Assembly (NCBI RefSeq): GCF_001457815.1
Contig: NZ_LN898221.1
Coordinates: 778,033 to 842,032, forward strand
DNA: 64,000 nucleotides
Source of the DNA: Vitreoscilla massiliensis
Lineage (GTDB): Bacteria; Pseudomonadota; Gammaproteobacteria; Burkholderiales; Neisseriaceae
Reading direction: 5' to 3'
The notes beneath the pieces were generated by a model. The model made no database searches. It had not been told where the DNA came from and saw nothing but the letters and a program-made list of their open reading frames with translations. This document shows, piece after piece, positions 1 to 64,000 of the stretch; within the stretch, counting starts at the first letter, position 1; every line of letters starts with the position of its first letter. The position numbers and the translations under genes were made by a program.

Positions 1-7
1 GCAAGAC

Positions 8-772
8 TTGTATACCTTGGCCGAACTCAGAGATGGGCAGCAATACAATCTGGAGCCGTGGTGTGTGCGCTATGAAGGCCGCTATGAAGTCGATGCCGAG
101 GCCTTGCGCAGCTTGTCTGTGGGCACGCAAGTGTTGCCTGAGACGGTGGTGCGGGTGTTGAAACTGAAATGGCTGAGCCTGCTGCGCAATCCTTACAATG
201 CGCAACACTTTATGCTGCGCCATTTGAGTGCGGCATGGCAGCACGGCTTGGCGCAGTTTGCGCAAGAATTGCAACCGCACCTGCACGAGCGCGATGACCG
301 AGCGCGCTTTCGCTTGGCCAAGCAATTCGGCTTTACCGATAGCGCCTATGTATCGTGGTTAAGCTTTTTGTATGCCTTGCTCAGCGATGCCGTTGCCCAG
401 CCGTCATGGCTGGAGCGCCTCACCGATTTGCTCATCCGCCACCCTGCTGTGCGCATCGAATTGTTCCAAGACCGTGAGCACGCTTACCACACCGTGTTTG
501 CCGATACCGGTTTTGCCTTACAGGCCGCTGCTACAGGTCTGAGCATCGGTTTTGGCACAGACAGCCACCATTGGTTAATATGCCACATCCCTGAGGCGCA
601 TTGGCAAAACTTGGCGCAGTGTTTGTGTGAGCCCGCGCCTGCGGTGGGCGAGCAAAGCCTGCACGTGTTCGCGGCCGATGCCAGCCAAGCGCAGTTATTC
701 AATGAGTTGATGTACAAAAATGCCGAACAATATGTGTATGCGCAAGTGGAAGCTGGCGCACGCATCACTTAA
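8..772 (+). CDS. Hypothetical protein, probably 5'-truncated by the window edge (the frame is open to position 1)
   Basis: Long ORF with protein-like composition. It ends just before an inverted uptake-motif terminator. No recognisable family. Confidence 0.45.
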   Translation: MYTLAELRDGQQYNLEPWCVRYEGRYEVDAEALRSLSVGTQVLPETVVRVLKLKWLSLLRNPYNAQHFMLRHLSAAWQHGLAQFAQELQPHLHERDDRARFRLAKQFGFTDSAYVSWLSFLYALLSDAVAQPSWLERLTDLLIRHPAVRIELFQDREHAYHTVFADTGFALQAAATGLSIGFGTDSHHWLICHIPEAHWQNLAQCLCEPAPAVGEQSLHVFAADASQAQLFNELMYKNAEQYVYAQVEAGARIT

Positions 773-810
773 AGCGGCCTGTAAACATCTGGCTAGAATT
801 TACAGGCCGC
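772..810. terminator. Inverted pair of the uptake-like motif (AAGCGGCCTGTAAAC...TTTACAGGCCGC) forming a hairpin
   Basis: Perfect inverted repeat seen immediately after the stop of the 8..772 ORF. Confidence 0.6.
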
Positions 811-824
811 ACAGTCGATGAATT

Positions 825-1241
825 GTGGACTGTGTGAAGCATGAACCTCATGCCCTACACCTATTGCTTATGAACCTGTCTAGTCATTTAAATGCCTATG
901 GAGGGAAGCGCGTGGATTTTGAGGCCGCATTGACACTGTTGCTGCAAGACTTTGCCCAAGCAAGCAGTCAGCAAAAAACCATTGCATTGCAAGTCTTAGC
1001 CGACTTTTTGCCACTGTCGTCGCCACAGCAACCGCCATGTTCGCAAGCCGTTTTACATGCCTTGCTCGATGCGGCCATCAGCTGTTTTGTGACAGAGCAA
1101 GATAACGATATACAAGAAGCGCTGGCGACGCTGATACGCAATGCCTCGGTTTATGTGGGCGTACTGCCGCGCCAAGACGCCAGACTGTGTGCATGGCTGC
1201 AAGCGCAGCAAGATGATGTGTGGCATGGCTATTTCAGTTAG
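825..1241 (+). CDS. Hypothetical protein
   Basis: ORF of 138 aa followed by an inverted uptake-motif terminator. No family recognised. Confidence 0.4.
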   Translation: MDCVKHEPHALHLLLMNLSSHLNAYGGKRVDFEAALTLLLQDFAQASSQQKTIALQVLADFLPLSSPQQPPCSQAVLHALLDAAISCFVTEQDNDIQEALATLIRNASVYVGVLPRQDARLCAWLQAQQDDVWHGYFS

Positions 1242-1261
1242 ACCCCACACGCAAACATAAC

Positions 1262-1301
1262 AAGCGGCCTGTAAACTCCAAAATGGGTTTACAGGCCGCT
1301 T
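1262..1301. terminator. Inverted uptake-motif pair (AAGCGGCCTGTAAACTCCAAAATGGGTTTACAGGCCGCTT). Bidirectional terminator between convergent genes
   Basis: Perfect inverted repeat between 825..1241 (+) and 1335..2501 (-). Confidence 0.6.
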
Positions 1302-1334
1302 CTTATGTACAACGATGCATGATGTGCGTTGGCT

Positions 1335-2501
1335 TTAACCCAAACGCCCAGTCGGCACCACTTGATGCGCTTGTTGCCAGCGCGTGCACAGTAAAAACGC
1401 CACGCTCAAGCCGACCAAGCCGTACAGCAAACCATTGCTGCCCAAGGCATGCATCAAGCCATTGCTGATGAGGGGGCCGGTCAAACTGCCCACGCCCCAG
1501 ACGATGCCGATGGCGGCATTGGCCGCGACCAAGTCTTGGCCTTCAAAATGGCCGCCGACGCGGATTAAACCCAGTGTGTACAGACCGCCGGCGCTGGCGC
1601 CCAATAACAGCAACAACGGCCACAACAGCATCCCGCCCATCACCCACGGCAATAACAGCAAAAACACGATGAAAAAACGGGCGCAATAGCTGTGCACACG
1701 TTTGGCGCCGAAGCGGTCGGCCAACCAGCCCAACGGCATTTGAAACAGTGCATCACCGATGAACAACACGCTCACCGCCAATACTGCCGCCTGTTCGCTC
1801 AAACCGTATTGCAAGCCATACAAAGGCAATAAGGCCAACATGGCGGTGTCGAAAAATGCGAAGGTGAAGATTGCCAGTATCACTGCTGGCGCAAACCGGA
1901 TGACGGCCAATGGTGTCATGCTGTGTTGGGTATTGTCTTCTCCCAAAGCCATTTCACACTTGCTTGGCAGCAACAAGGCAAAACCGAGCACGTTGCAGGC
2001 AAAGGCAATCCACAACGGCCACACCGCATTGGAACCGAACCACGCCAAGATGCTGGGGCCGGCCACTTGGCAGATGGTGTACATGGTGGCATACGCAGCG
2101 ACGCAGCGGCCGCGCCACCTCGGCGCTGAAATCACATTCACCCATGTCTCACCCAACACCACCAACAAACCACAGCCCACGCCCATCATGAAACGCCATG
2201 CCATCAGCCACAGCAAATCATCGGTGAACGCAATCGCCAAAATGCTGAGTGCACTCAGACCCGAAGCAAACAACAACAGCCATTTGTTGGCGATGCGTTT
2301 GGACAAACGGTGAGCGCACACAGACGCCAGCAACATGCCTATGGCCGGCATGGCGGCGGCGATGCCCAACCAATCGCTGGCGACACCGCGCTGACTCAAT
2401 AACAAACTGACTAAGGGGATGGTTAAACCGGTACTCAAACCTACGATGGACACGCTGGCAAATAAGGCCACCATGTCCAAGCTGAGCCAAGACTTCTTCA
2501 C
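1335..2501 (-). CDS. MFS-family transporter
   Basis: 388 aa, about 12 predicted hydrophobic helices, MFS-like G/A-rich loop motifs. Confidence 0.75.
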   Translation of the reverse strand: MKKSWLSLDMVALFASVSIVGLSTGLTIPLVSLLLSQRGVASDWLGIAAAMPAIGMLLASVCAHRLSKRIANKWLLLFASGLSALSILAIAFTDDLLWLMAWRFMMGVGCGLLVVLGETWVNVISAPRWRGRCVAAYATMYTICQVAGPSILAWFGSNAVWPLWIAFACNVLGFALLLPSKCEMALGEDNTQHSMTPLAVIRFAPAVILAIFTFAFFDTAMLALLPLYGLQYGLSEQAAVLAVSVLFIGDALFQMPLGWLADRFGAKRVHSYCARFFIVFLLLLPWVMGGMLLWPLLLLLGASAGGLYTLGLIRVGGHFEGQDLVAANAAIGIVWGVGSLTGPLISNGLMHALGSNGLLYGLVGLSVAFLLCTRWQQAHQVVPTGRLG

Positions 2502-4440: not shown

Positions 4441-4631
4441 GCATGATCCAAACTGTGTTGCTTAATGGGGGCTCTGCCATCGTTACAGGCCGCTTGCGTT
4501 CGCGCAAACAGGCGCGTTTTTAATGTGAGCTTAAGTAAACATTGTACTGCATTGCAACGTAAACACTGCAAAAAGCGCTATAATCGCGCTTTCTTTTGTT
4601 CCACACCCAGCTTGGTAAAGAGACCACCACC

Positions 4632-5499: not shown

Positions 5500-7731
5500 A
5501 TGATCAAGAAGTTACGTTCGGGGAAGTTTTGGCTCAAACTGGTGTTTGGCGGTTTTGTGACATGGTTATTGTTGATGTCGGCCGGCTACGCCATTTCGGT
5601 ATGGGGATTGAGCGATGCACGCATCCAATCCGCCTTACAGCAAGCCATGCCTACAGGCCGCAACATCCACATCGGTGAAATTTCCAACCGCGGTTGGCTG
5701 CCTTACCCGAGCGTGACTTTACACAATGTCAATATCTCTTACCCCAATCGCACCACGCCGCAATTCAAACTGAAAGAATTGCAAATTGGCTTAAGCTGGA
5801 ACAGCTTGTTTGGCCATGCCAAAGTCAAAAAACTGCGTTTGGTGCAACCCGAATTCAACATCGCCCGTTTGCATGACAACACTTGGAATATGGACGATTT
5901 TTACCAAAACCCGCGTGCCACCGCTGGCATAGACGATTTGGAAATCATCGACGGGGTCTTGCAAGTGCAAGAAACCCATCACAGCTACGAATTGAACAGC
6001 GTCAACGCTTCTATTGAGAATTGGCAAAGTGCCAAAAGCACGCTGCATCTGGCGTTTGACTGGAATTCAGCCTTACTTGGCAAACAACAAGTCAATTTAG
6101 AAGCACCGTTGCAAAAGACCGCGCTAGGCTTTAGCAGCAAAGACGTGCGCATCCAAATCGACAATGTCTTGCCCGAAGTCGGCGCAGTAACCTGGTATGC
6201 CAACGCGCAAATGGCGCACCAATGGTTGCCACACCGCAGCGATTTCAGCAACATCAACATCAATGGCAGCGACGAGGCCAACGGTTTTAAAGCCAATTTC
6301 AGCATTCCCAAAGCCAGTTGGCAAAAAATTTGGAAACTGAGCCAAGCCAGTGGCGTGGCGCAGTGGACAGACAGCAACCAGCGCACCAATACCGCCACCC
6401 TCAAACTCAGCCCGACCGAAATCAGCAGCCAACACTTCAAGAGCGAAGACAGCAGCATTGATTTTCTGTCCAAATCGGCGAAAGAAACGCTGTCGGTCAA
6501 GGCCAATGGCCGGTTTGAAGTGCAAAGCAGCGGCCAATTCATGTTCAACAATTGGCAAATCAGCAGCCGCCAAACCGACATGAATCTGCAAACCGATGCC
6601 TTATTCCGCAGCGAAGGTGTGATCAATGCGTTTGGCAACATCCACAAGCAATGGCACGCCACTTGGGATGGCAAGTTTGACGACGACATGCTCAAAATCG
6701 AGCTCAATGCCAACGACAACAAGCAATTGGACATGGATGTGGTGGCGCAACATTTGGATTTGGAGCGCTACCAAAACTGGTTAAACCCGCCACTTGCCAA
6801 CAATAGCACTGCCAGCGAAACGGCGATTTCGGCCCGTCCTGATTCCGCACCAGTGGATGCCAGTGACAGCAATGCCGACCGCAACAACGCACCACAGGCC
6901 GAATGGTGGGTGTGGTGGAGCAAGCTGCCGAGCGATTGGCATTTGAACGGTTCCATCGATGTGGCGAGTTTGATTACCAAGCAAATGCAATTGGCGCAAG
7001 TGCACACCGACATAGACTTGAGCCGCGACAGCTTCAAAGCGTTTAACATCACCGCCGAAGCCTATGGTGGGCAGTTACAGGCCGCTGTAGAAATCCCACG
7101 CGCCGCCGAAGCCGCCAACACCATGCAATTGCAATTGCAAAACATGCAAGTGCAGCCGTGGCTGCAACACTGGCAAGAATACAACCGTTTAAGTGGCACC
7201 GGCAGTTTGGTGTTGAAAGCCACTGCCATCGGCAATCGCTGGGAAGACGTGCAAGACAGCCTCAATGGTGACTTCAGTTTTGAGCTCAAAGACGGCCATT
7301 TCCAAGGCATTGCACTGGAAAGCCTGCTCGAAAAAACCGGCAATAACAACATGCAATTGAAACTCGAAGACGGTGCCGAAACCGATTTCGATGTGTTCAA
7401 AAGCCACAGCAGCATCAAAAACGGCGTGTTCCAAACCGACATCGTCGATTTGAGCATGCCCATGGGTTTGCAATTGAGTGGCGAAGGCCGCTACCACTTG
7501 CCCAATAACAAAATGGATTACCATTTGAAGTTTGGCCAAAGCCTGATTGAAAAAGCGGCCTTGCCGCTGCGCATCTCTGGCCCGTTACAACAACCGATGT
7601 TTGCGCTGGATTACCAAACCCTGACCAAGGGCTTGACCAATTCTACCGACAAATCCAATGCCGTGCGCGAAGCCTTGAAACGCCAATGGCAGCTGTGGCA
7701 AATGCCGGAATTGCCTACTGGCAAACCATGA
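5500..7731 (+). CDS. AsmA-family outer-membrane biogenesis protein
   Basis: About 740 aa, N-terminal membrane anchor, repetitive beta-rich body typical of the AsmA/TamB-like family. Confidence 0.7.
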   Translation: MIKKLRSGKFWLKLVFGGFVTWLLLMSAGYAISVWGLSDARIQSALQQAMPTGRNIHIGEISNRGWLPYPSVTLHNVNISYPNRTTPQFKLKELQIGLSWNSLFGHAKVKKLRLVQPEFNIARLHDNTWNMDDFYQNPRATAGIDDLEIIDGVLQVQETHHSYELNSVNASIENWQSAKSTLHLAFDWNSALLGKQQVNLEAPLQKTALGFSSKDVRIQIDNVLPEVGAVTWYANAQMAHQWLPHRSDFSNININGSDEANGFKANFSIPKASWQKIWKLSQASGVAQWTDSNQRTNTATLKLSPTEISSQHFKSEDSSIDFLSKSAKETLSVKANGRFEVQSSGQFMFNNWQISSRQTDMNLQTDALFRSEGVINAFGNIHKQWHATWDGKFDDDMLKIELNANDNKQLDMDVVAQHLDLERYQNWLNPPLANNSTASETAISARPDSAPVDASDSNADRNNAPQAEWWVWWSKLPSDWHLNGSIDVASLITKQMQLAQVHTDIDLSRDSFKAFNITAEAYGGQLQAAVEIPRAAEAANTMQLQLQNMQVQPWLQHWQEYNRLSGTGSLVLKATAIGNRWEDVQDSLNGDFSFELKDGHFQGIALESLLEKTGNNNMQLKLEDGAETDFDVFKSHSSIKNGVFQTDIVDLSMPMGLQLSGEGRYHLPNNKMDYHLKFGQSLIEKAALPLRISGPLQQPMFALDYQTLTKGLTNSTDKSNAVREALKRQWQLWQMPELPTGKP

Positions 7732-7760: not shown

Positions 7761-8963
7761 ATGCCTAATAAGCGGCCTGTAAACCATGTCATCGTGATAG
7801 GTGGCGGCATTGCCGGCGCGTTTACCGCCCATGTGTTTGCCCAACATGGCATTGCCGTCACACTGCTAGAACAAGACACCATCGCCAGCGGCGCTTCGGG
7901 CAACCACCAAGGCTTGCTCTACGCCAAAATCTCCGCCGCCGACACCCCACAAAACCAATTGCTGCAACTGGCTTATCCGTTTGTGTTGCAACACTTACAG
8001 GCCGAGTTTGCCAAGGCCGAGTTTTGGCACAGTTGCGGTTTGCTACAGCAAGCGTTTAGCCCACAAGAAGCGCAGCGCCAACACAAACTATTGCAGCGAG
8101 CCAGCGCCGATTTTGACGCATGGCAAGGCCAGAATCCCGATTTACAGCGCTTATTGCCTGATGCCACTGGTGTGTGGTGGCCACAAGGCGCGTGGGTGAG
8201 CCCACCGCTGTGGATACAAGCGCTGCTGCAACATCCGCTCATTCATGTGCATGAACACAGCCCTGTTACTGCTTTACAGGCCGCTCAAGCAGACATTTGG
8301 CATGTACACACTGCTCATGGCGAAGTGCACTCGGCCTCACATGTCATTGTTTGCAATGGCGCTGCGGCCGACACCTTTGCCCAAACCCAACACCTGCAAT
8401 TGCGCCGCATCCGTGGCCAAGTCGCGTATGCCGCCAGCGATGCGTGCAGCTCAGCATTAAGCGCCGCCATCAGCGCCGCCCATTACCTCACCCCTGCCTT
8501 TGCTGGCAAACACACGTTTGGTGCCAGTTTTGTGTTCGGTGACGATAACACCGCGTTTCGCATATCTGAACACCAACACAATCTGCACGGTTTGGCCGAG
8601 ATTTTGCCCGACATTGCCGCAGGTTTTGCCACACAAGCGCCGCAAGGGCGCGCGTCTGTGCGCGCCGACAGCATAGACCATTTGCCCGTGGTCGGGCCGG
8701 TGGGCCAAGCCGAGGCGATGCGCCAGTTGTATGCCAAACTGGCTTTGGATAAGAATTACCGCTTACAGGCCGCTTGTCCGTATTGGGAAGGTTTGTGGCT
8801 AAACTGTGCGCATGGCACCCGCGGTATGCTAACCGCACCACTTTCTGCGTACCATCTGGCGAAACAAATCCTAGAGCAAAAATCCGTTTTGCCTCAAACA
8901 CTTCAGCACTGTTTGCACCCTAATCGCTTGTTAATCCGCCAATTAATTTACGCAAATGCTTAG
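7761..8963 (+). CDS. FAD-dependent oxidoreductase (DAO family, resembling the MnmC C-terminal oxidase domain)
   Basis: N-terminal VIVIGGGIAGAF dinucleotide-binding motif. About 400 aa. An uptake motif is embedded at the start and encodes NKRPVN. Confidence 0.6.
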   Translation: MPNKRPVNHVIVIGGGIAGAFTAHVFAQHGIAVTLLEQDTIASGASGNHQGLLYAKISAADTPQNQLLQLAYPFVLQHLQAEFAKAEFWHSCGLLQQAFSPQEAQRQHKLLQRASADFDAWQGQNPDLQRLLPDATGVWWPQGAWVSPPLWIQALLQHPLIHVHEHSPVTALQAAQADIWHVHTAHGEVHSASHVIVCNGAAADTFAQTQHLQLRRIRGQVAYAASDACSSALSAAISAAHYLTPAFAGKHTFGASFVFGDDNTAFRISEHQHNLHGLAEILPDIAAGFATQAPQGRASVRADSIDHLPVVGPVGQAEAMRQLYAKLALDKNYRLQAACPYWEGLWLNCAHGTRGMLTAPLSAYHLAKQILEQKSVLPQTLQHCLHPNRLLIRQLIYANA

Positions 8964-11394: not shown

Positions 11395-11440
11395 GCGGCC
11401 TGTAAACATCGAAAAGCGGCTTACAGGCCGCTTTTTTGCA
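11393..11440. terminator. Inverted uptake-motif pair followed by a T-run (AAGCGGCCTGTAAACATCGAAAAGCGGCTTACAGGCCGCTTTTTT)
   Basis: Hairpin plus U-tract directly after the phbB stop. Confidence 0.7.
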
Positions 11441-15633: not shown

Positions 15634-15672
15634 AAGCGGCCTGTAAACCCCATCTCAGGTTTACAGGCCGCT
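15634..15672. terminator. Inverted uptake-motif pair. Bidirectional terminator between aroC (+) and the hydrolase gene (-)
   Basis: AAGCGGCCTGTAAACCCCATCTCAGGTTTACAGGCCGCTT. Confidence 0.65.
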
Positions 15673-15692: not shown

Positions 15693-16565
15693 TTAAGCGC
15701 GTACTGCTGTCAATTGTTGCATCACTTCGCGGATGTGCAGTGCGGCTTGTTGCCAGTCTTGCTCCAACATCACACCGTGGCCCATGGCGTCTATCCAGTG
15801 TACTGGCACTTGGTAACTCATGGCGGTTAATTCGGTGATGTTTGGCGGCACGAGGCGGTCTTGTTTGGTTCCCATCACCGCCACTGGGCATTTGCGCCAC
15901 CACGGCGTCAGAATCGAACCTTGTGCCAACTCTGTCCACAAAATCGGTGATTCGGGCACAGCTTGGGCGGCGTATTGCGCCAATAAAACCGGATTAATCG
16001 GTTGTTCAAACAAGCCTTCGCGCAATTGTTCGGCGCTGACGCGGTTGCCTTGTTGAATGAGTTCGGCCATGTGCATCATGTCCATAGGGCGCAAAAACCA
16101 ATTGCTCCACGCCAATGGCGTTAAGCCTTGCGGCGGGATGGAACACAATAATAAAGCGGCCTGTAATTGGCGCGACACCATCAGCCGTTGCAACACCATG
16201 CCACCCATGGAATGGCCGATGACGATGGGCATTTTGCCGGTTTGGCGGTAGATGTAATCGACGGCGATTTCGGCATCGCTGACAAAATCGTTCAAACCAA
16301 ACCAACCATTGGCTTGGCTGTTGCCATGGCCACGGAAACTCAAGGCCCATGCGTCCCAACCGTGGTGGGCAAAGTCGGGCAAGAAATGTTGCCAACACCA
16401 CGCACCAACAAAAATACCGTGTAAAAACAACACCGGCGTACTGTCGTTGTCGTGCACAGACACATGGCGCAACAATTCCAGCGGGTAAGCGCAATTGTCA
16501 GGCTGTATGTGTTGTATGGTTTCCGTTGCCACCAGAAACTGTTGGTTTAAGTCTTGCCACTTCAT
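15693..16565 (-). CDS. Alpha/beta-fold hydrolase
   Basis: HG oxyanion motif and GHSMGG nucleophile elbow. Confidence 0.7.
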   Translation of the reverse strand: MKWQDLNQQFLVATETIQHIQPDNCAYPLELLRHVSVHDNDSTPVLFLHGIFVGAWCWQHFLPDFAHHGWDAWALSFRGHGNSQANGWFGLNDFVSDAEIAVDYIYRQTGKMPIVIGHSMGGMVLQRLMVSRQLQAALLLCSIPPQGLTPLAWSNWFLRPMDMMHMAELIQQGNRVSAEQLREGLFEQPINPVLLAQYAAQAVPESPILWTELAQGSILTPWWRKCPVAVMGTKQDRLVPPNITELTAMSYQVPVHWIDAMGHGVMLEQDWQQAALHIREVMQQLTAVRA

Positions 16566-19220: not shown

Positions 19221-19262
19221 AAGCGGCCTGTAAACACAGTTAAACCCAGTTTACAGGCCGCT
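19221..19262. terminator. Inverted uptake-motif pair
   Basis: AAGCGGCCTGTAAACACAGTTAAACCCAGTTTACAGGCCGCTT lies between trmA and trxC, which face apart. It may mark the end of or insulate the divergent region. Confidence 0.4.
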
Positions 19263-20535: not shown

Positions 20536-21041
20536 CAACTTGTCTTTGAAACGAGCCTCGCAACGAAGACTCCTAATCAGTGAAGTTGCCTCCCATATTG
20601 GCCTTGTAAACTTGGGAAGCTTGGTCAGCTATTCAGTGCGACTGGATACATTTTAATAAAGGTTTGGTCATTTATTTTTATTAAAACGCATTCTATATCC
20701 TATAGTGTTACCTACTCAGCCCACCTCTGCCATCAGCGGTGGGCTTTCACATGCCTGCAATTTAAAATTCATTCAAACGATTGCTTACGCAATCCCCATA
20801 ATATGCGGCCTGTAAAGTCATGAGAAACTGCCAAACACACTGGCGCAGGTTTGCACAATCACATCTTAATTGAACTTATTCGGTCATCACGCAGACAAAG
20901 ACAGCGGTACGCAACATACAAGCGGCGCTATTTTGAACTTGTGTCAAAAAAACTCACCTGAATTTAAGAAATATTTGTTTGAAATAATTTGATGACAGAG
21001 TCTGGTAACACCCTGCAACTGCTTGAGAGTTAAAACATCTT

Positions 21042-23705: not shown

Positions 23706-23748
23706 CAAGCGGCCTGTAAAAGTTTACAGGCCGCTTTTTTATGGCTTT
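23706..23748. terminator. Inverted uptake-motif pair plus T-run (CAAGCGGCCTGTAAAAGTTTACAGGCCGCTTTTTT)
   Basis: Immediately after the rnr stop. Confidence 0.7.
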
Positions 23749-26198: not shown

Positions 26199-28210
<2,012 letters not shown>

Positions 28211-28216: not shown

Positions 28217-28293
28217 AAGCGGACTGTAAACCAAGCTGCACACACACCCCAAAACCACGGCCACACTGCCGTGGTTTTTCGTTTACAGGCCGC
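28217..28293. terminator. Compound terminator. A conventional hairpin plus T-run (AAAACCACGGCC...GCCGTGGTTTTT) nested between an inverted pair of uptake-like motifs (one copy variant, AAGCGGACTGTAAAC)
   Basis: Read directly between thiC (+) and the yeiH-like gene (-). Confidence 0.6.
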
Positions 28294-39949: not shown

Positions 39950-39982
39950 AAGCGGCCTGTAAATACCTTACAGGCCGCTTTT
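39950..39982. terminator. Inverted uptake-motif pair (AAGCGGCCTGTAAATACCTTACAGGCCGCTTTT)
   Basis: Downstream of the efflux operon on the minus strand. Confidence 0.6.
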
Positions 39983-45614: not shown

Positions 45615-45650
45615 CAAGCGGCCTGTAAAGCATTTACAGGCCGCTTTTTT
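45615..45650. terminator. Inverted uptake-motif pair plus T-run
   Basis: CAAGCGGCCTGTAAAGCATTTACAGGCCGCTTTTTT. Confidence 0.7.
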
Positions 45651-46837: not shown

Positions 46838-46931
46838 AGCCTGACATACACAAGCGGCCTGTAAATGTTACAGGCCGCTTTTTTTTTGTATTGATACCCA
46901 TGCTTTTATTCTAAAACAACTGAGTTTTTTC

Positions 46932-48905: not shown

Positions 48906-49059
48906 GGTAAGCCTTGGGAAAGTTTACAGGCCGCATGTCTCTGTCTATCTCAGACCAACAGCACACACGCCATCAGCATGAAACCAATATGCGGTGTTTA
49001 AACCAGAAACGCAATCTGCACGCGCTGTACAACAGATGGGTAGCGAGCAAATACCACAC

Positions 49060-49458
49060 TCACCACCATGCATGCCACGCATGTTGGCGCAATAAATAAT
49101 GATTGTACGGCGTGCGCACCGCCGCCCAGATTTGCATCGCCGCATACGGCAATACCCACCACATGGCGTCGAAATACCAACTCAAGGTAATGCACAACAT
49201 CAATACCGACAACAACACGATGGCAGGATTGATTAAACCGATGTAAGCCAAATACAACCAGCCCAACAACAAGGTGCCCCAACTGCCCAAGATGGCCAAT
49301 TTGTGTGGGAAACCGGTATAAAAAGCGGCCTGTAACTTCTCAGACCAACTCAAACCACCGAATTTATCGAAGAAATCAAACAGCAGCCATTGCTTGTCGC
49401 TGAATGACGGCGGCGCAGGCTGAGGTTTGAGTGGAGGTGGCGTTTGCTGCTGGTTCAT
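49060..49458 (-). CDS. Hypothetical membrane protein with a Pro-rich N-terminus
   Basis: Three or four hydrophobic helices. Trp-rich. Confidence 0.45.
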   Translation of the reverse strand: MNQQQTPPPLKPQPAPPSFSDKQWLLFDFFDKFGGLSWSEKLQAAFYTGFPHKLAILGSWGTLLLGWLYLAYIGLINPAIVLLSVLMLCITLSWYFDAMWWVLPYAAMQIWAAVRTPYNHYLLRQHAWHAWW

Positions 49459-52780: not shown

Positions 52781-52810
52781 TTTACAGGCCGCATACAAGC
52801 GGCCTGTAAG
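52781..52810. terminator. Inverted uptake-motif pair (TTTACAGGCCGCATACAAGCGGCCTGTAAG)
   Basis: Directly after the nrdA stop. Confidence 0.55.
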
Positions 52811-56068: not shown

Positions 56069-56073
56069 CATCT

Positions 56074-56437: not shown

Positions 56438-56592
56438 CACCTCATCGCTATCATCAATGCGGCCTGTAAATCACGTTAAGGATTTACAGGCCGCATTAAG
56501 TCTGTGCGCGAAGATGTGCAGACACGTTGTATGCCCCACTACACAACAATCTGCATCACAATATAGATGATTCCAGCTTACAGGCCGCTTTC

Positions 56593-57300
56593 TTACTCCT
56601 CATTTAAGCGGCCTGTAATGCGCATCCACACATAGCACAGAAACAATACCATATTGTTCAGCAGCCATAAGCGCACCCAAGCAAAGCCCAAGCTGGCAAT
56701 GAGCCAAATGGGATAATGCTCAAGCAGCAACAGCCTCACATTGTCACGGTCCAAGGCAGCACCAGCGGTCGCATGGAGTAAGTCCCGCACATGCGTGAGC
56801 GACATTCCCCAAGCCAAGCCCGTGAACAACAGCAAGCAGAACACGCCGATTATCATGCCCCACCATGCAGAGCCCAACATGATGCTGTGAAAACCATATT
56901 CCATATCATTCTTAAAATCAGCATCGTGTTTGAGCGCAAACAACCATGCGCGCACACTTGCCGGCGCCTGTTTTAACATCCAGAAGCCTATGCCCACACT
57001 CAACAGCAAACTGCCGATAAACGCACTCAAGACATAGTAAGAATACAATTGGCTTAAATCACATTGCCCTGAGCGCACCTGCCATCCCAGCAGTCGATTC
57101 ACGCCTGCAAACACAGTCGTTTCACACTGCGCATAAGCACACAGCCATGCGATGCCTTGCAGCAGCAGCGTGCCCCATAACCACGGTTTGACGATGTGCC
57201 AATGCAGGGTCAGGGTCAGTCGCTGGGAAACAGACATGGCTTTGGTGGTTTTCAGCGGCAGCTTGGGTTTTATCATCGGTATGGTTTGCATCGGAGGCAC
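56593..57300 (-). CDS. Integral membrane protein, paralogue A (tandem duplicate of 57337..58062)
   Basis: About 230 aa, 4-5 transmembrane helices, conserved MIKPKLP...CETxxxxxxNRLxGWQ...CDLS...YVWMRITGRL. An uptake motif is read through at the 3' end, encoding ITGRL. Confidence 0.55.
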   Translation of the reverse strand: MPPMQTIPMIKPKLPLKTTKAMSVSQRLTLTLHWHIVKPWLWGTLLLQGIAWLCAYAQCETTVFAGVNRLLGWQVRSGQCDLSQLYSYYVLSAFIGSLLLSVGIGFWMLKQAPASVRAWLFALKHDADFKNDMEYGFHSIMLGSAWWGMIIGVFCLLLFTGLAWGMSLTHVRDLLHATAGAALDRDNVRLLLLEHYPIWLIASLGFAWVRLWLLNNMVLFLCYVWMRITGRLNEE

Positions 57301-57336: not shown

Positions 57337-58062
57337 TTACAGGCCACTTTCATGCGCCTGATGCAAGCGGCCTGTAATGCGCATCCACACATAGCTCAGA
57401 TAGATTACGACATTGGCAAGCAACCATAAGCGCAGCAAACCCATGACGATGTGGATGACAAACCAAGTTGGAAAATAATACTCACTCAGCAACAAACCAA
57501 GGTTGTGGCTGTCGATGGCTGCACCTTCGATGTATCCATACCAAGATTTTGGATAATTTAAAGACGCATCAATGCTGGCCATGGTCAAAAGCAGCCACAT
57601 CATAATGGCCAGCAGCACAGCCAAGCAGCGCATCACTCCATCCCAGCGTCCCCAACCCGACAACCAACCATCAGAGGCATATTCCAAGTTCCGCTTTAAA
57701 TCAGGATCGTGTTTGAACCAAAACAACCATGTGCGCACGGTGGCGGGTGCCACTTTCAGCATCCATATGACGGTGCCCACCCACAACAGCAAGCCCAGCC
57801 TGCCAGCGATGAACACTTGGTAACGCAACAAGTGGCTTAAATCACATAGCCCTGTGTACAGCTGCCAACCCATGAGCCGATTCAAGCACACATGCAGCGC
57901 TGTTTCACACTGCACAAAAGCACACAGCCAAGCGATGCATTGCACCAACACCATGCCCAATAACCATGGCTTGCTTACCCGCCAATGCGTGACCAAAGCC
58001 AGAGAGGTGGCCTTAGGTATGGTTAGTGTGTGGGGTTTAATGGGCAATTTGGGTTTTATCAT
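57337..58062 (-). CDS. Integral membrane protein, paralogue B
   Basis: About 45-50% identity to paralogue A by eye. The same C-terminal embedded uptake motif and duplicated downstream segment. Confidence 0.55.
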   Translation of the reverse strand: MIKPKLPIKPHTLTIPKATSLALVTHWRVSKPWLLGMVLVQCIAWLCAFVQCETALHVCLNRLMGWQLYTGLCDLSHLLRYQVFIAGRLGLLLWVGTVIWMLKVAPATVRTWLFWFKHDPDLKRNLEYASDGWLSGWGRWDGVMRCLAVLLAIMMWLLLTMASIDASLNYPKSWYGYIEGAAIDSHNLGLLLSEYYFPTWFVIHIVMGLLRLWLLANVVIYLSYVWMRITGRLHQAHESGL

Positions 58063-58471
58063 CGGTGTGCTCGGTAGCAGGTATCACGGTGTAGCAGCGA
58101 TATGGCATGGACATGGCTGGCTTAAAAAGCAAGTTACAGGCCGCATTAAACTTAAACAAGAGCACTGCCCAAGCACACGACCAACAATAAGTTTGATTCT
58201 TCCTGAGCCTCATCCTCTGCAGCACAGGCTTATCTTATTGTGTACGGTCGCGGCAGCAGCCACACCCAATACCACAAACTGTTGTTTATTCAACACATTA
58301 ATAACATCATCTGCACACCTACCAGCGCTGAAAACCCAGCCAGATGGGCCTGACATTTCTAGGTTAAACAGTTTATAAAGTTTCCAACTCTAAATTGATT
58401 TGCATCAAACCTTGACCATTTCAGATGCATCAAAATACAGCGTTTCCACAAATAAATCATGAGGATATAAA

Positions 58472-59050: not shown

Positions 59051-59082
59051 AAAGCGGCCTGTAAACATTTACAGGCCGCTTT
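59051..59082. terminator. Inverted uptake-motif pair, bidirectional (globin gene + / MFS gene -)
   Basis: AAAGCGGCCTGTAAACATTTACAGGCCGCTTT. Confidence 0.65.
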
Positions 59083-60481: not shown

Positions 60482-61387
60482 ATGGAATTGCGACACATAC
60501 GCTATTTTTTGGTGGTGGCAGAGGAACAAAACTTCACCCGCGCTGCTGCCCGTTTGGGCATCAGCCAGCCGCCGCTGTCGATGCAAATCAAGCAATTAGA
60601 GCAGGAAATAGGCGCGGAATTGTTTTACCGCACCACCAATGGCGCCGAGCTCACCGCCGCCGGCAGCGCGTTTTATCAAGCGGTGAAACCGATAGAGCAG
60701 CGTTTACAGGCCGCTGTGACCACCACCCAAGAAGTCGCCAATGGCTCGCTCGGTACGCTGCGCTTGGGCTATACCGGCACGGCCATGCTCCATCCCTTGC
60801 TGCGGCGGGTGATACGTTTGTTTCAGCAACAATACCCCAACATCCAATTGCAATTATCGGAAGCCAATTCCTTGATTTTAATGGAGCGTTTGCAACGCGA
60901 TGAGCTCGACATCGCCGTGGTGCGCCCGCCGCAAACCACCCCGCCCGATTTGAACATGCAAATCTTGCTCACCGAAATCATGGTGGCCGCGCTACCGACC
61001 GAACACCCTTGCCAAGCGATGACGGAAATTCCCCTGGGTTTGCTGCAACACGACATGTTCATTGTCTCCCCCGCCACCGTCAGCTCAGGGCTGTTTGATG
61101 CCATACGCGAAGCCTGTTTTGCGCATGGCTTTGAACCGAAGATGTGGCAAAATGCCCCGCAAATCGTGTCCATCTTGTCGCTGGTGGCGGCCAATTTGGG
61201 CGTGACTTTGGTGCCAGAATCGGCAAAGCAATTGCAAATCAGCGGCTTGCGCTACCGCAGCATCAGCGCGCCGACGCCGACCGTCGACATGGCCTTGGCC
61301 TATCCCAAGCTCACCCATTCACAAGCGGCGATTAATTTTTCCAGTTTGATACATACCCTATTAAAGCGGCCTGTAAACCCTGATTGA
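60482..61387 (+). CDS. LysR-family transcriptional regulator
   Basis: HTH (IRYFLVVAEEQNFTRAAARLGISQPPLS). The C-terminal residues LKRPVNPD are encoded by an embedded uptake motif. Confidence 0.85.
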   Translation: MELRHIRYFLVVAEEQNFTRAAARLGISQPPLSMQIKQLEQEIGAELFYRTTNGAELTAAGSAFYQAVKPIEQRLQAAVTTTQEVANGSLGTLRLGYTGTAMLHPLLRRVIRLFQQQYPNIQLQLSEANSLILMERLQRDELDIAVVRPPQTTPPDLNMQILLTEIMVAALPTEHPCQAMTEIPLGLLQHDMFIVSPATVSSGLFDAIREACFAHGFEPKMWQNAPQIVSILSLVAANLGVTLVPESAKQLQISGLRYRSISAPTPTVDMALAYPKLTHSQAAINFSSLIHTLLKRPVNPD

Positions 61388-62416: not shown

Positions 62417-62481
62417 GCTGAACGTAAGCCATTGCGGATGTTTAAGGCTGTATTGTTGTTTTAGATGCTCGCCTTAATAGC

Positions 62482-62521
62482 AAGCGGCCTGTAAACCCTT
62501 GTTTAGGTTTACAGGCCGCTT
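62482..62521. terminator. Inverted uptake-motif pair, bidirectional
   Basis: CAAGCGGCCTGTAAACCCTTGTTTAGGTTTACAGGCCGCTT. Confidence 0.65.
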
Positions 62522-62541
62522 GTATGTTTCTATGACAACTA

Positions 62542-62832
62542 TCAGGCTTGCACAGGCTCGCGCTGCTTGAGTTTGGCATCAAACACAAACGGGCCAAACG
62601 GCAAAATGGCCGCCAACAAACCCATCACAAACACCGATAACGGCCATTTGTTGACATGGCAGCTGACAAACAACACCACCAAAAACAGCAAGAACAACAC
62701 CCCATGCGCCATGCCCATAGGCGGTATCAAGCTGGCATTTTCAAACACATATTTCATCGGCATCGCCACAAACAGCAATAACAAAAACGAAATGCCTTCC
62801 AAAAAACCGACCACGCGCAATAATTTATGCAT
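62542..62832 (-). CDS. Small membrane protein (DUF3817-like)
   Basis: 96 aa, three transmembrane helices. Confidence 0.45.
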   Translation of the reverse strand: MHKLLRVVGFLEGISFLLLLFVAMPMKYVFENASLIPPMGMAHGVLFLLFLVVLFVSCHVNKWPLSVFVMGLLAAILPFGPFVFDAKLKQREPVQA

Positions 62833-63142
62833 ATTTCATTCCCAGCAAGTCCAAATTAAGTCCATGATTATAGTTGATAATAGATTTAAATGCCGTTTAA
62901 ATTCAACAAATGCCGCGATATTTCATGTTTTTCATCATCAAAACACACAGTGTGCCATGCCTAAGAAGCATGTACCGACTTGAAACATGACAACAAACAT
63001 AGACGACACGCAGACAGCCACACACATGAACCATGTTTAAGAAACCGCTACTGTTCTGATGGCAAATGCGCACTAAGGCAGCAAAGACCACATGATGTGT
63101 TGCCCATACCGCACAGACATTTGCACAGCTGCACACATAACC

Positions 63143-63182
63143 AAGCGGCCTGTAAACCTCTAACAGTGTTTACAGGCCGCTT
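63143..63182. terminator. Inverted uptake-motif pair after nadC
   Basis: CAAGCGGCCTGTAAACCTCTAACAGTGTTTACAGGCCGCTT. Confidence 0.65.
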
Positions 63183-63194
63183 GTTACAAGCCAA

Positions 63195-64000
63195 TCAGTC
63201 CAAATAATCCATGCCTATGTCCAAATAGCGGGCGCTGTGGGTGACATAGCCCATGGCCAAGAAGTCGACACCGGTTTCGGCAACGATGACGGCGGTGTCA
63301 GGATTGAGGCCACCTGAGGCTTCGGTTTGGCACTGACCTTGGCACATGTCCACGGCGGTGCGCAAATCTTCGACGCTCATATTGTCGAGCAAGACCAAGG
63401 ACACGCCTTCTTGCAATACTTTTTCCAATTGGCGCAAATTGTCGACCTCGATTTCAATCGGTATCAAATGGCCGGCATAGGCCTTGGCTTGTTGGATGAC
63501 CGCGCTCAAATCGCCACCAGCCAAGGCGATGTGGTTGTCTTTGATTAAGATGGCATCGTCCAAGCCCAAACGGTGGTTGCGGCCGCCGCCCACGCGCACG
63601 GCAAATTTTTGCAACACCCGCAACCCCGGCATGGTTTTGCGTGTGCACGTCACTTGCGCTTGGGTGTAAGCAATGCTGGCTTGGATTTGCTGGGTGGTGG
63701 TGGCGATGCCGCTTAAATGGGTGAGGAAATTCAAGGCGGTGCGCTCGGCCGATAAAATGGCGCGGGCATTGCCTTGGACGGTGGCAATGATGTCACCGCG
63801 TTGCAACACATCGCCATCATTGACCTTGGTTTCAAACGCCAAACCCACGCCCATCGCTTCAAAACTCAAGCGCGCCAAATCTATGCCGCAGAGTACGCCT
63901 TGTTCGCGCGCGACGATGTGCAATTGGCAGGTCTGCGCGGCGGCAATGACGGCTTCCGACGTCACATCGGCGCGACGCCCCAAATCTTCCAACAATGCGG
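63195..64000 (-). CDS. nadC: Nicotinate-nucleotide pyrophosphorylase (quinolinate phosphoribosyltransferase). N-terminus lies beyond the window edge
   Basis: Colinear with NadC from about residue 25 onward (ERTALNFL..SGIAT, GGGRNHRLGLDDAILIKDNH). Confidence 0.85.
   Translation of the reverse strand, partial: ALLEDLGRRADVTSEAVIAAAQTCQLHIVAREQGVLCGIDLARLSFEAMGVGLAFETKVNDGDVLQRGDIIATVQGNARAILSAERTALNFLTHLSGIATTTQQIQASIAYTQAQVTCTRKTMPGLRVLQKFAVRVGGGRNHRLGLDDAILIKDNHIALAGGDLSAVIQQAKAYAGHLIPIEIEVDNLRQLEKVLQEGVSLVLLDNMSVEDLRTAVDMCQGQCQTEASGGLNPDTAVIVAETGVDFLAMGYVTHSARYLDIGMDYLD

What the first reader, a model, noticed from the sequence alone, without database searches (positions are those of the whole stretch)
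1..64000. Genome-wide over-represented 14-mer AAGCGGCCTGTAAA behaves like a DNA uptake sequence of an undescribed dialect
Seen in sequence: the motif or its reverse complement recurs about once per kb on both strands, with an invariant GCGGCCTGTAA core. Most copies sit as closely spaced inverted pairs exactly at gene ends. Many of these pairs are followed by T-runs, so they double as rho-independent terminators. Several single copies are read through inside coding sequence, where they encode -KRPVN- (at the start of the FAD oxidoreductase at 7772, and at the LysR C-terminus at 61363). Two copies encode -ITGRL- at the 3' ends of the duplicated membrane genes. This genomic behaviour is what is established for the 10-12 nt DUS of Neisseriaceae and the USS of Pasteurellaceae. 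The sequence shares the CTG-containing layout of Neisseriaceae DUS variants (compare AT-DUS ATGCCGTCTGAA) but is not any DUS or USS I can recall. The gene content (orphan phaB, long-form purC) fits a betaproteobacterium.
Basis: partly seen in the sequence, partly recalled or inferred. Interest (0 to 1): 0.75.

Follow-up and report, generated by a model that had tools for sequence, protein, structure and literature searches.

The report
Vitreoscilla massiliensis DNA uptake sequence (vitDUS)
The repeated 11-13-base word is real and behaves just like the DNA uptake sequences that Neisseria relatives use to recognise their own DNA, but this dialect of Vitreoscilla massiliensis was already named "vitDUS" in an October 2025 preprint and its uptake function remains untested.

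Summary
GCGGCCTGTAA occurs 64 times in 64 kb (31 +, 33 -) against 0.03 expected. The conserved unit is A-[A/T]-GCGGCCTGTA-A. Thirty-four copies form 17 inverted pairs, 16 of them within 70 nt downstream of a stop codon. These fold into hairpins of -18 to -27 kcal/mol, and 12 of the 16 convergent pairs have a T-rich tail behind a gene end. Nineteen copies lie inside ORFs in only three frames: LQAA 13, TGR 4, KRPVN 2.

The window is Vitreoscilla massiliensis DSM 100958 (Neisseriaceae), chromosome CP091511. The DUS interpretation is supported. CTG sits at +6 to +8 and A at +10, as in every published dialect.

The "undescribed dialect" claim is out of date. bioRxiv 10.1101/2025.10.24.684340 names GCGGCCTGTA "vitDUS" in this strain. 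It reports 3,105 genome copies of CGGCCTGTAA (observed/expected 65) and states that ComP is encoded.

I could not retrieve the V. massiliensis ComP gene with the tools available. No transformation data exist. The function is therefore inferred, not shown.

One side observation is not in the preprint. The motif's 5' half, AAGCGG, equals positions 3-8 of the Apl-type Pasteurellaceae USS, including its GCGG core. This is probably coincidence.

The parts
774..810 (.). convergent vitDUS inverted pair. Hairpin of 15 bp, dG -20.8. It starts 2 nt after the stop of ORF 8-772(+). No T-rich tail.
1264..1299 (.). convergent pair between convergent genes 825-1241(+) and MFS 1335-2501(-). dG -26.5. T-rich tails on both strands, so a candidate bidirectional terminator.
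11395..11431 (.). convergent pair starting 1 nt after the stop of the adh_short/phaB-like gene 10654-11394(+). The -2/-1 'AA' is part of the TAA stop. Tail TTTTTT.
15636..15671 (.). convergent pair between aroC 14523-15617(+) and hydrolase 15693-16565(-). dG -26.3. TTTT tail on the - strand. Also called by the terminator scan.
19223..19261 (.). convergent pair in the divergent promoter region between trmA(-) and trx(+). This is the only pair not at a gene end.
23709..23734 (.). convergent pair 43 nt after the RNase R stop. 11-bp stem, 4-nt loop, tail TTTTTT.
33493..33518 (.). convergent pair 25 nt after the stop of GT8 gene 33543-34511(-). T-rich tail on the - strand.
35138..35173 (.). convergent pair 57 nt after the stop of YchJ-like 34689-35081(+).
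35273..35307 (.). convergent pair 37 nt after the stop of DUF6630 gene 35344-36375(-).
39952..39978 (.). convergent pair 65 nt after the stop of TolC-like 40043-41455(-). TTTT tails on both strands.
45618..45644 (.). convergent pair 17 nt after the RidA stop (45245-45601 +). Tail TTTTTT.
46854..46878 (.). convergent pair between NMO 45779-46837(+) and sugar transferase 46932-47513(-). Tail of nine T.
52782..52809 (.). the only true divergent pair (revDUS-6 nt-DUS), between the nrdA stop and the nrdB start. No T tail.
56459..56494 (.). convergent pair 22 nt after the stop of 56162-56437(+). No T-rich tail.
59054..59079 (.). convergent pair between protoglobin 58472-59023(+) and MFS 59103-60368(-). 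T-rich tails on both strands.
62484..62519 (.). convergent pair 68 nt after the ribB stop.
63145..63180 (.). convergent pair 15 nt after the stop of nadC 63195-63995(-).
518..528 (-). single copy inside ORF 8-772(+), read as LQAA
2588..2598 (-). single intergenic copy (AT- prefix)
4483..4493 (-). single intergenic copy between divergent genes thiL-like(-) and purC(+)
7075..7085 (-). single copy in the AsmA-family gene, read as LQAA
7772..7782 (+). single copy read as KRPVN, residues 4-8 of the FAD oxidoreductase (start ATG 7761)
8274..8284 (-). single copy in the FAD oxidoreductase, LQAA
8763..8773 (-). single copy in the FAD oxidoreductase, LQAA
9685..9695 (-). single copy in the PLD-family gene, LQAA
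14476..14486 (-). single intergenic copy 24 nt after the stop of 13937-14452(+)
16156..16166 (+). single copy in the hydrolase gene (-), LQAA
20464..20474 (+). single intergenic copy
20805..20815 (+). single intergenic copy (AT- prefix)
22795..22805 (-). single copy in RNase R, read as FTGRP
26318..26328 (-). single copy 15 nt 3' of the TPP riboswitch aptamer. It lies in the 5' extension of the thiC ORF and is probably in the 5' UTR.
28283..28293 (-). single copy 73 nt after the thiC stop, with a one-mismatch inverted partner at 28219-28229
29659..29669 (+). single copy in LysR gene 29530-30453(-), LTGRL
29852..29862 (+). single copy in the same LysR gene, LQAA
32134..32144 (+). single copy in the SPFH gene (-), LQAA
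35195..35205 (-). single intergenic copy between the two pairs at 35.1-35.3 kb
40884..40894 (+). single copy in the TolC-like gene (-), LQAA
41400..41410 (+). single copy in the TolC-like gene (-), LQAA
45692..45702 (+). single intergenic copy (AT- prefix)
48924..48934 (-). single intergenic copy
49325..49335 (+). single copy in ORF 49060-49482(-), LQAA
56578..56588 (-). single copy 5 nt downstream of the stop of paralog 56593-57300(-)
56608..56618 (+). copy read as ITGRL at the C-terminus of membrane paralog 56593-57300(-)
57367..57377 (+). copy read as ITGRL at the C-terminus of membrane paralog 57337-58062(-). A one-mismatch inverted partner at 57337 overlaps the stop codon.
58134..58144 (-). 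single intergenic copy
60704..60714 (-). single copy in LysR gene 60455-61387(+), LQAA
61366..61376 (+). single copy read as KRPVN at the LysR C-terminus (...LLKRPVNPD*)

Best explanation
The repeat is the DNA uptake sequence dialect of Vitreoscilla massiliensis, called 'vitDUS'. The 10-mer is GCGGCCTGTA. In this window the conserved unit is the 13-mer A-[A/T]-GCGGCCTGTA-A.

The proposed mechanism is carried over from Neisseria and is not shown in Vitreoscilla. A ComP-type minor pilin, displayed on type IV pili, binds double-stranded DNA carrying the motif. Pilus retraction then imports that DNA preferentially, and RecA-dependent recombination installs it. This uptake bias enriches the motif across the core genome.

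Copies persist only where they are tolerated. In genes they are found in a few harmless reading frames, mostly LQAA on the complementary strand. Between genes, two inverted copies make a stable hairpin. The motif's own 5' AA gives the first two T of a tail on the other arm, so pairs have been co-opted as intrinsic, often bidirectional, terminators.

Shown here: the over-representation, the anatomy, the layout shared with other DUS, the host identity, and hairpin plus T-tail geometry. Inferred: binding by ComP, biased uptake, and actual termination.
For: 1. There are 64 exact copies against 0.03 expected, on both strands equally. Another 9 copies lie in the 7.4 kb of CP091511 just outside the window.
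2. The window is 99.99% identical to CP091511.1. That record is V. massiliensis DSM 100958, family Neisseriaceae.
3. The layout matches the published invariants of all DUS dialects, namely CTG at +6 to +8 and A at +10. Mismatched copies are rare and mostly differ at the motif ends.
4. Only the 11-13 nt word is conserved. Loops (3-17 nt) and flanks differ between pairs. The -2/-1 AA preference also holds in the 30 unpaired copies. This fits a short recognition word, not a mobile element.
5. ORF-internal copies use 3 of 6 frames, 13 of 19 as LQAA. The preprint reports QAA above 50% genome-wide for the Vitreoscilla dialect whose sequence can encode it.
6. The hairpins are -18.5 to -26.5 kcal/mol. 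Sixteen of 17 pairs lie within 70 nt after a stop codon, and 12 of 16 convergent pairs have at least 5 T in 8 nt on the strand of the ending gene.
7. There is no strand bias among unpaired copies (14 + / 16 -) although GC skew is negative in all but one of the sixteen 4-kb bins.
8. Independent publication: CGGCCTGTAA has 3,105 copies genome-wide with observed/expected 65 in V. massiliensis SN6. The sister species V. stercoraria carries the one-base variant GCGTCCTGTA, and both genomes are said to encode ComP.
9. A 1.8-kb insert of 28-35% GC at 54.3-56.1 kb has no copy, as expected for recently acquired DNA (the principle is).
Against: There is no experimental evidence of natural transformation or motif-dependent uptake in any Vitreoscilla.

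I could not retrieve a ComP gene from this genome. ComP presence therefore rests on one sentence in a preprint.

The Pfam ComP_DUS domain is not specific. It is carried by pilins named from Thiobacillus, Leeia and Aquabacterium, none of them among the DUS-bearing Neisseriaceae. It also occurs in a contig (L019) with no DUS enrichment.

No competence or pilus gene lies in the window. Terminator function is predicted from geometry only. Four of 16 convergent pairs lack a T-rich tail.
Confidence: 0.85

Rival explanations
1. The motif is primarily a terminator or REP-like palindromic unit, spread by selection for transcription termination or by a REP-associated transposase. It has nothing to do with DNA uptake.
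For: Fifty-three percent of copies are in inverted pairs placed after stop codons, with strong hairpins and often T tails. Forty-five of 64 copies are in the 12.7% non-coding DNA. Isolated GCGGCCTGTAA hairpins also occur once each in unrelated genomes.
Against: Thirty copies are unpaired, and 19 lie inside ORFs, where a terminator would be harmful. The conserved word is asymmetric and only 11-13 nt long, with variable loops and flanks. Perfect copies outnumber one-mismatch copies 64 to 17, unlike degenerate REP families. No transposase-like gene was found in the window. [quoted passage not shown]
Confidence: 0.07
2. It is a polar chromosome-organising or recombination signal, such as a Chi-like or KOPS-like site, or the target of a restriction-modification or site-specific nuclease system.
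For: It is short, exact and genome-wide over-represented, like Chi and KOPS.
Against: Chi and KOPS are skewed to one replication strand. Here the counts are 31 + / 33 - overall and 14 + / 16 - among unpaired copies, although GC skew is negative in 15 of 16 bins. The density of about 1 per kb, with most copies as inverted pairs after genes, does not fit those signals. R-M targets are normally avoided, not enriched.
Confidence: 0.03
3. It is a relic DUS. The motif accumulated in a competent ancestor and now survives only because it is embedded in terminators and tolerated codons. Present-day V. massiliensis no longer takes up DNA specifically.
For: No competence phenotype has been reported. I could not find ComP.
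Against: The motif is extremely well preserved: 64 perfect against 17 one-mismatch copies, with interior positions almost invariant. The dialect differs by one base from the sister species, so the motif must have been homogenised after the two species diverged. A relic without drive should be decaying. The preprint states that ComP is present.
Confidence: 0.05

Closest known systems
vitDUS of Vitreoscilla massiliensis SN6 (bioRxiv 10.1101/2025.10.24.684340, Oct 2025)
   Same: It is the identical sequence (10-mer GCGGCCTGTA, 12-mer AGCGGCCTGTAA) in the same organism. Density agrees: 3,105 genome copies is about 0.83 per kb, and the window has 70 copies of CGGCCTGTAA in 64 kb. The terminator association and the QAA reading-frame bias also agree.
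   Different: Nothing essential differs. The window adds detail. The conserved unit extends to -2 (A in 54 of 64) and +11 (A in 64 of 69 10-mers). There is an AA- majority form and an AT- minority form (47 and 14 copies). Loop lengths fall into two groups, 3-6 and 13-17 nt. The preprint swaps the names vitDUS and vit3DUS between its Results and Discussion. Its evidence is purely computational.
vit3DUS of Vitreoscilla stercoraria (GCGTCCTGTA; same preprint)
   Same: Nine of 10 positions are the same, including the T at +9 that is unique to the two Vitreoscilla dialects. It comes from the sister species.
   Different: Position +4 is T instead of G. The window has 69 G-type and 1 T-type 10-mers. 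One 8-kb V. stercoraria locus (L011) has 4 G-type and 2 T-type copies.
AA-king3DUS of Kingella denitrificans (AAGCAGCCTGCA; sequence recalled from Frye et al. 2013 and consistent with the SLX/QAA frames)
   Same: Ten of 12 positions match, including the AA prefix, GC at +1/+2, GCCTG at +4 to +8, and A at +10. It has been shown experimentally to raise transformation 90-fold in its host.
   Different: Position +3 is G rather than A, and +9 is T rather than C. The genus differs. There is no experimental test for the Vitreoscilla motif.
AT-DUS / AG-DUS of Neisseria meningitidis and N. gonorrhoeae (ATGCCGTCTGAA; ComP receptor, PDB 2m3k/5hz7)
   Same: It is a word of 12 nt or so at about 1 per kb on both strands. 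CTG sits at +6 to +8 and A at +10. Inverted pairs act as terminators, and coding copies sit in restricted frames.
   Different: The 10-mers differ at +3, +5 and +9 (G, C, T against C, T, A), and the prefix differs at -1. Receptor binding and uptake are proven only for Neisseria.
Pasteurellaceae USS (Hin-USS AAGTGCGGT, Apl-USS ACAAGCGGT)
   Same: The genomic behaviour is the same. In addition, the 5' half of vitDUS, AAGCGG, equals Apl-USS positions 3-8 and contains the USS inner core GCGG. Ten of 64 window copies carry ACAAGCGG.
   Different: No phased AT-rich tracts follow the core. The next base is C, not T. The host is not a Pasteurellaceae. The predicted USS receptor is ComN/PpdA, not ComP. 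The 6-mer match has a chance probability of roughly 3% per dialect and was noticed post hoc.

Membership tests
Neisseriaceae DNA uptake sequence (DUS) | A short (10-12 nt) exact word, hugely over-represented, on both strands | tested here: met
   There are 64 copies against 0.03 expected, 31 + and 33 -. Nine more lie in the 7.4 kb outside the window. Genome-wide the preprint reports 3,105 copies with observed/expected 65.
Neisseriaceae DNA uptake sequence (DUS) | CTG core at positions +6 to +8 and A at +10, conserved in all dialects (Frye 2013) | tested here: met
   In GCGGCCTGTA, C6 T7 G8 and A10 are invariant in all 64 copies. The criterion is quoted.
Neisseriaceae DNA uptake sequence (DUS) | Host belongs to the Neisseriaceae | tested here: met
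   The window is 99.99% identical to CP091511.1, which is V. massiliensis DSM 100958.
Neisseriaceae DNA uptake sequence (DUS) | Many copies occur as inverted pairs forming intrinsic terminators at gene ends | tested here: met
   There are 17 pairs, 16 of them within 70 nt after a stop codon. Hairpin dG is -18.5 to -26.5 kcal/mol, and 12 of 16 convergent pairs have a T-rich tail. Geometry only; termination was not measured.
Neisseriaceae DNA uptake sequence (DUS) | Copies inside genes are confined to a few tolerated reading frames | tested here: met
   The 19 ORF-internal copies read LQAA 13, TGR 4 and KRPVN 2. Three of six frames are unused.
Neisseriaceae DNA uptake sequence (DUS) | Lineage-specific dialect, with close relatives carrying a near-identical variant | tested here: inconclusive
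   The V. stercoraria locus L011 carries both GCGTCCTGTA (2) and GCGGCCTGTA (4), but that locus was selected by the G-type pattern. Genome-wide figures come only from the preprint.
Neisseriaceae DNA uptake sequence (DUS) | Scarce in recently acquired DNA | tested here: inconclusive
   The 1.8-kb low-GC insert at 54.3-56.1 kb has no copy. However, DUS-free gaps of 3-4.6 kb also occur in DNA of ordinary composition.
Neisseriaceae DNA uptake sequence (DUS) | A cognate ComP minor-pilin receptor, plus type IV pilus and competence genes, in the same genome | tested here: inconclusive
   None lies in the window. Three homology searches, one exhaustive profile search, three cluster look-ups and five contig look-ups did not return a V. 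massiliensis protein. The preprint states that ComP is encoded.
Neisseriaceae DNA uptake sequence (DUS) | The motif raises DNA uptake or transformation in the host | not testable with these tools
   No experimental report was found.
Pasteurellaceae USS | 9-mer core AAGTGCGGT or ACAAGCGGT followed by phased AT-rich tracts, in a Pasteurellaceae host | tested here: not met
   Only AAGCGG is shared. There are no downstream AT tracts in the 30 unpaired copies, and the host is a Neisseriaceae.
REP / palindromic mobile repeat | An imperfect palindromic unit of 20-40 nt, confined to intergenic DNA, with conserved loop or flanks and often a RAYT transposase | tested here: not met
   The word is an asymmetric 11-13-mer. 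Thirty copies are unpaired and 19 lie in ORFs. Loops vary in sequence and length. No transposase-like gene was found in the window.

The most novel reading that the evidence does not exclude
The V. massiliensis dialect is a composite. Its 5' half, AAGCGG, is identical to positions 3-8 of the Apl-type Pasteurellaceae USS, including the USS inner core GCGG. Its 3' half carries the DUS inner core CTG. Vitreoscilla does not group with the Neisseria, Eikenella or Kingella/Alysiella/Simonsiella (CWASK) clusters of the Neisseriaceae. The motif could therefore be a surviving intermediate that links DUS and USS by descent. That would support the recent suggestion that the two systems and their minor-pilin receptors (ComP, ComN/PpdA) diverged from one ancestor rather than converging. 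A related reading concerns the G-type and T-type words found side by side in one V. stercoraria locus. That could be a dialect switch caught in progress.
Probability: 0.06. Interest if true: 0.75.

Novelty: already known. Interest (0 to 1): 0.22.

Why it matters
The finding shows that a reader without tools can recognise an uptake-sequence system from raw sequence alone. It also gives independent, window-level confirmation of a dialect so far reported only in a preprint. The window adds anatomy: an extended 13-nt unit, AA- and AT- prefix forms, two groups of loop lengths, and frame usage.

Biologically, a DUS in Vitreoscilla extends sequence-specific DNA uptake to a lineage outside the main Neisseriaceae clusters that is not known as a pathogen. 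That bears on how old the ComP-DUS system is. The practical consequence is a testable prediction. Adding AAGCGGCCTGTAA to a construct should make V. massiliensis genetically tractable by natural transformation.

The dialect is already described and behaves as expected for the family, so the surprise value for a specialist is low.

Tried and rejected
It gave no genome-wide map and no taxonomic range. Only L011 (V. stercoraria) was useful.

2. The search for the V. massiliensis ComP failed.
- My recalled N. meningitidis ComP sequence was verified against PDB 2m3k/5hz7.
- A word-indexed search found only close Neisseria relatives.
- An exhaustive profile search gave about 35 ComP-like representatives.
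- Two further alignment searches, three cluster look-ups and five contig look-ups identified proteins named from Crenobacter, Stenoxybacter, Snodgrassella, Kingella negevensis, Conchiformibius, Wielerella and Aquitalea. None came from Vitreoscilla.
- By-products: two ComP-like loci (L019, L020) sit upstream of DUF493-lipB-lipA. L020 carries 16 AG-simDUS copies in 13 kb. L019 has a ComP_DUS-domain pilin but no DUS enrichment, so that Pfam domain alone does not indicate a DUS system.

4. A first look-up with the RNase R ORF failed. The gene is not called in the Nanopore-only assembly CP091511.

5. I looked for USS-like phased AT tracts around the unpaired copies and found none.

6. I considered a Chi/KOPS-like polar signal and rejected it for lack of strand bias.

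7. The supplement of the N. leonii paper mentions seven unnamed candidate dialects, but the held text does not contain this motif.

Full report
OBSERVATION

GCGGCCTGTAA occurs 64 times in the 64-kb window (31 +, 33 -). One hundred dinucleotide-preserving shuffles gave 0.03 +/- 0.17. AAGCGGCCTGTAAA occurs 53 times at up to one mismatch, against 0.02 expected. The two overlapping 10-mers CGGCCTGTAA (70 copies) and GCGGCCTGTA (69) are by far the most frequent 10-mers in the window.

Aligning all copies gives the unit A(-2, 54/64) - A/T(-1, 47/14) - GCGGCCTGTA - A(+11) - A(+12, 41/64) - C(+13, 34/64). The AA preference at -2/-1 also holds in the 30 unpaired copies (21/30 and 19/30). It is therefore part of the word and not a by-product of terminator tails. 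Only 17 copies carry one mismatch, and 11 of these differ at the first or last position.

ANATOMY

Thirty-four copies form 17 inverted pairs. Sixteen are convergent (5'-DUS-loop-revDUS-3') and one is divergent (52782-52809). An apparent 18th pair at 56578/56608 is really one copy inside a gene plus one just past its stop codon.

Loops fall into two length groups, 3-6 nt and 13-17 nt. Their sequences are unrelated, and the longer ones often extend the stem by 2-4 bp. Predicted RNA hairpins are -18.5 to -26.5 kcal/mol for the bare pairs, and -21 to -31 with the AA/TT flank.

Sixteen of 17 pairs lie 1-68 nt downstream of at least one stop codon. Five sit between convergent genes. The pair at 19223-19261 lies between two divergent gene starts. 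Seven of the 16 convergent pairs have at least 4 consecutive T right after the stem on the strand of a gene that ends there. Twelve of 16 have at least 5 T in 8 nt. In the part of the window I ran through the consensus terminator scan (1-20 kb) it calls only one of the five pairs, because of its loop and tail limits.

Forty-five of 64 copies lie in the 12.7% of the window that is non-coding. Nineteen copies are inside ORFs and use three frames only:
- LQAA on the complementary strand: 13 copies.
- TGR(L/P) on the complementary strand: 4 copies.
- KRPVN on the motif strand: 2 copies.

- MPNKRPVNHVIVIGGG at the start of the FAD oxidoreductase.
- ...LLKRPVNPD* at the LysR C-terminus.
- ...YVWMRITGRL... 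at the ends of two tandem membrane-protein paralogs that are 45% identical.

HOST AND GENOME-WIDE STATUS

Chorismate synthase and ApaG of the window are encoded identically on NCBI record CP091511.1 (3,727,721 bp). The retrieved 21-kb locus is 99.99% identical to window 4522-25619. Supplementary Data 1 of Nyongesa et al. 2022 identifies CP091511 / GCA_022870925.1 as Vitreoscilla massiliensis DSM 100958, sequenced by Nanopore only. To my knowledge this is the type strain SN6. The family is Neisseriaceae.

The 7.4 kb of CP091511 immediately outside the window holds 9 more copies. For the whole genome I rely on bioRxiv 10.1101/2025.10.24.684340. It reports CGGCCTGTAA at 3,105 copies (observed/expected 65) and AGCGGCCTGT at 2,129 copies in V. 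massiliensis SN6. That is 0.83 per kb, in line with the window. The motif is therefore not a local repeat.

WHAT IT IS

Frye et al. 2013 found CTG at +6 to +8 and A at +10 conserved in all DUS dialects. They showed that the CTG core is required for transformation. GCGGCCTGTA satisfies both. The following features are those documented for DUS and USS:
- An exact short asymmetric word.
- Equal use of both strands.
- Unpaired copies inside genes in a few frames.
- Pairs co-opted as terminators.
- Absence from a 1.8-kb insert of 28-35% GC (54.3-56.1 kb).
- A one-base-different variant in the sister species V. stercoraria.

The same preprint names exactly this sequence. In its Discussion, "vitDUS" is GCGGCCTGTA and "vit3DUS" is GCGTCCTGTA for V. 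stercoraria. Its Results attach the QAA frame to "vit3DUS", although only GCGGCCTGTA can encode QAA. The names are therefore swapped somewhere in the text.

MECHANISM

By analogy with Neisseria, a ComP-type minor pilin on type IV pili would bind the word in double-stranded DNA and pilus retraction would import it. Biased uptake plus recombination would then spread and homogenise the word. Copies survive in tolerated codon frames and, as inverted pairs, are recruited as terminators. The motif's own 5' AA supplies the first TT of the tail on the opposite arm.

None of these steps has been shown in Vitreoscilla. I found no report of natural transformation in the genus.

I tried hard to find the ComP gene of this genome and failed. 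ComP presence thus rests on one sentence of the preprint.

That evidence is weaker than it sounds. The Pfam ComP_DUS domain is found in pilins named from Thiobacillus, Leeia and Aquabacterium, none of them among the DUS-bearing Neisseriaceae. It also occurs in a contig (L019) with no DUS enrichment. By contrast, a metagenomic contig with two ComP-like genes (L020) carries 16 AG-simDUS copies in 13 kb. Two ComP-like loci sit upstream of DUF493-lipB-lipA, which tells where to look in V. massiliensis.

RIVALS

A pure terminator or REP-like element is contradicted by four things: the 30 unpaired copies, the 19 ORF-internal copies, the variable loops, and the 64:17 ratio of perfect to one-mismatch copies.

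A Chi/KOPS-type polar signal is contradicted by the lack of strand bias where GC skew is negative in all but one 4-kb bin.

A relic DUS without present function is unlikely, given the near-perfect conservation and the species-specific base at +4. It cannot be excluded without an experiment.

COMPARISON WITH KNOWN DIALECTS

The published dialects are:
- AT-DUS ATGCCGTCTGAA, AG-DUS AGGCCGTCTGAA and AG-eikDUS AGGCTACCTGAA.
- AG-kingDUS AGGCAGCCTGAA, AG-simDUS AGGCTGCCTGAA and AG-mucDUS AGGTCGTCTGAA.
- AA-king3DUS AAGCAGCCTGCA and TG-wadDUS TGCCTGTCTGAA (recalled from Frye 2013).

The nearest experimentally validated dialect is AA-king3DUS, with 10 of 12 positions identical. The T at +9 is unique to the two Vitreoscilla dialects.

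A SIDE OBSERVATION NOT IN THE PREPRINT

The 5' half of the word, AAGCGG, is identical to positions 3-8 of the Apl-type USS ACAAGCGGT and contains the USS inner core GCGG. Ten of 64 window copies carry ACAAGCGG. The preprint does not mention this.

The same group has suggested that DUS and USS may share ancestry. However, a 6-mer match has roughly a 3% chance per dialect. It was noticed post hoc among 11 dialects, the V. stercoraria variant lacks GCGG, and no USS-like AT tracts follow the core. I rate it as probably coincidental.

VERDICT

The claim of novelty is not supported, because the dialect was described in October 2025. Interest is low to moderate.

Noticed in passing
window, all 64 copies (for example 1262-1275 and 46850-46865): The 5' half of the motif, AAGCGG, equals positions 3-8 of the Apl-type Pasteurellaceae USS ACAAGCGGT and includes the USS inner core GCGG, directly 5' of the DUS core CTG. 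Ten of 64 copies carry ACAAGCGG. The preprint that named vitDUS does not discuss this. The chance of such a match is roughly 3% per dialect.
   Followed up: partly
window 54300-56100: A 1.8-kb segment of 28-35% GC (the window average is about 50%) holds an ORF with no family (54317-54973) and an HTH + IrrE/M78-peptidase gene (54977-56068). It contains no vitDUS and is probably recently acquired. A single V. stercoraria-type word, GCGTCCTGTAA, lies at its right edge (56086).
   Followed up: partly
L011 (V. stercoraria DSM 513, NZ_KB908031.1), 8 kb: This locus carries 4 copies of the V. massiliensis-type GCGGCCTGTA next to 2 copies of the species' own GCGTCCTGTA. That could mean mixed dialects or imported DNA. 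The locus was selected by the G-type pattern, so the ratio is biased.
   Followed up: partly
L004 (IMGVR_UViG_2775506858_000003, 13.6 kb of a 96-kb contig): A lambda-like tail module (minor tail protein, tail assembly protein, a 1,963-aa central tail fibre J, and a baseplate hub/tail lysozyme homologue, by PHROGs) carries 4 vitDUS 10-mers, including one inverted pair. It is a prophage or phage of a vitDUS-bearing host.
   Followed up: partly
L005 (JBATSI010000073.1, 'Ca. Saccharimonas' MAG, 3.1 kb) and L010 (CALJUC010000218.1, 'uncultured Moraxella' MAG, 5.6 kb): Each short contig carries 3 exact AAGCGGCCTGTAA-type copies, far above chance. They are probably mis-binned contigs from a Vitreoscilla-like organism.
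   Followed up: no
window 56593-57300 and 57337-58062 (- strand): These are tandem paralogous genes for hydrophobic proteins with no Pfam family, 45% identical. Both end in YVWMRITGRL, encoded across a vitDUS, and each is followed by an inverted (or one-mismatch) partner around its stop codon. The DUS arrangement was duplicated together with the gene.
   Followed up: partly
window 26195-26303 and 61523-61649: A TPP riboswitch lies upstream of thiC and an FMN riboswitch upstream of ribB (Rfam 80.5 and 110.2 bits). A single vitDUS (26318-26328, - strand) sits 15 nt 3' of the TPP aptamer, inside what ORF listing treats as the thiC ORF extension.
   Followed up: no
window 33080-33154: ARAGORN predicts a tRNA-Asp with the odd anticodon ATC, overlapping tRNA-Met by 4 nt. 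Rfam supports only the tRNA at 33152-33223 and the tRNA-Leu at 21045-21128. The Asp call is probably a false positive.
   Followed up: no
window 4522-25619 vs L001; 49843-56635 vs L003: The window differs from the Nanopore-only assembly CP091511 by 3 indels in 21 kb. RNase R (21099-23666) is not called in that assembly. The HTH-IrrE gene is split in two in the Logan assembly of the same strain's reads. The window therefore comes from a different assembly of the same strain.
   Followed up: partly
L019, L020-L022, L027: In L019 and L020-L022, ComP_DUS-domain pilin genes sit immediately upstream of DUF493-lipB-lipA. L020 has two such pilin genes in tandem and 16 AG-simDUS copies in 13 kb. L019 has the pilin but no enriched word. 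In L027 the pilin gene follows a ComEA-like (HHH_3) gene.
   Followed up: partly
bioRxiv 10.1101/2025.10.24.684340: The preprint assigns the QAA frame to 'vit3DUS' and QDA to 'vitDUS' in its Results. Its Discussion defines vitDUS = GCGGCCTGTA (which encodes QAA) and vit3DUS = GCGTCCTGTA (which encodes QDA). The Figure 1 panel labels B and C are also crossed between legend and text.
   Followed up: yes
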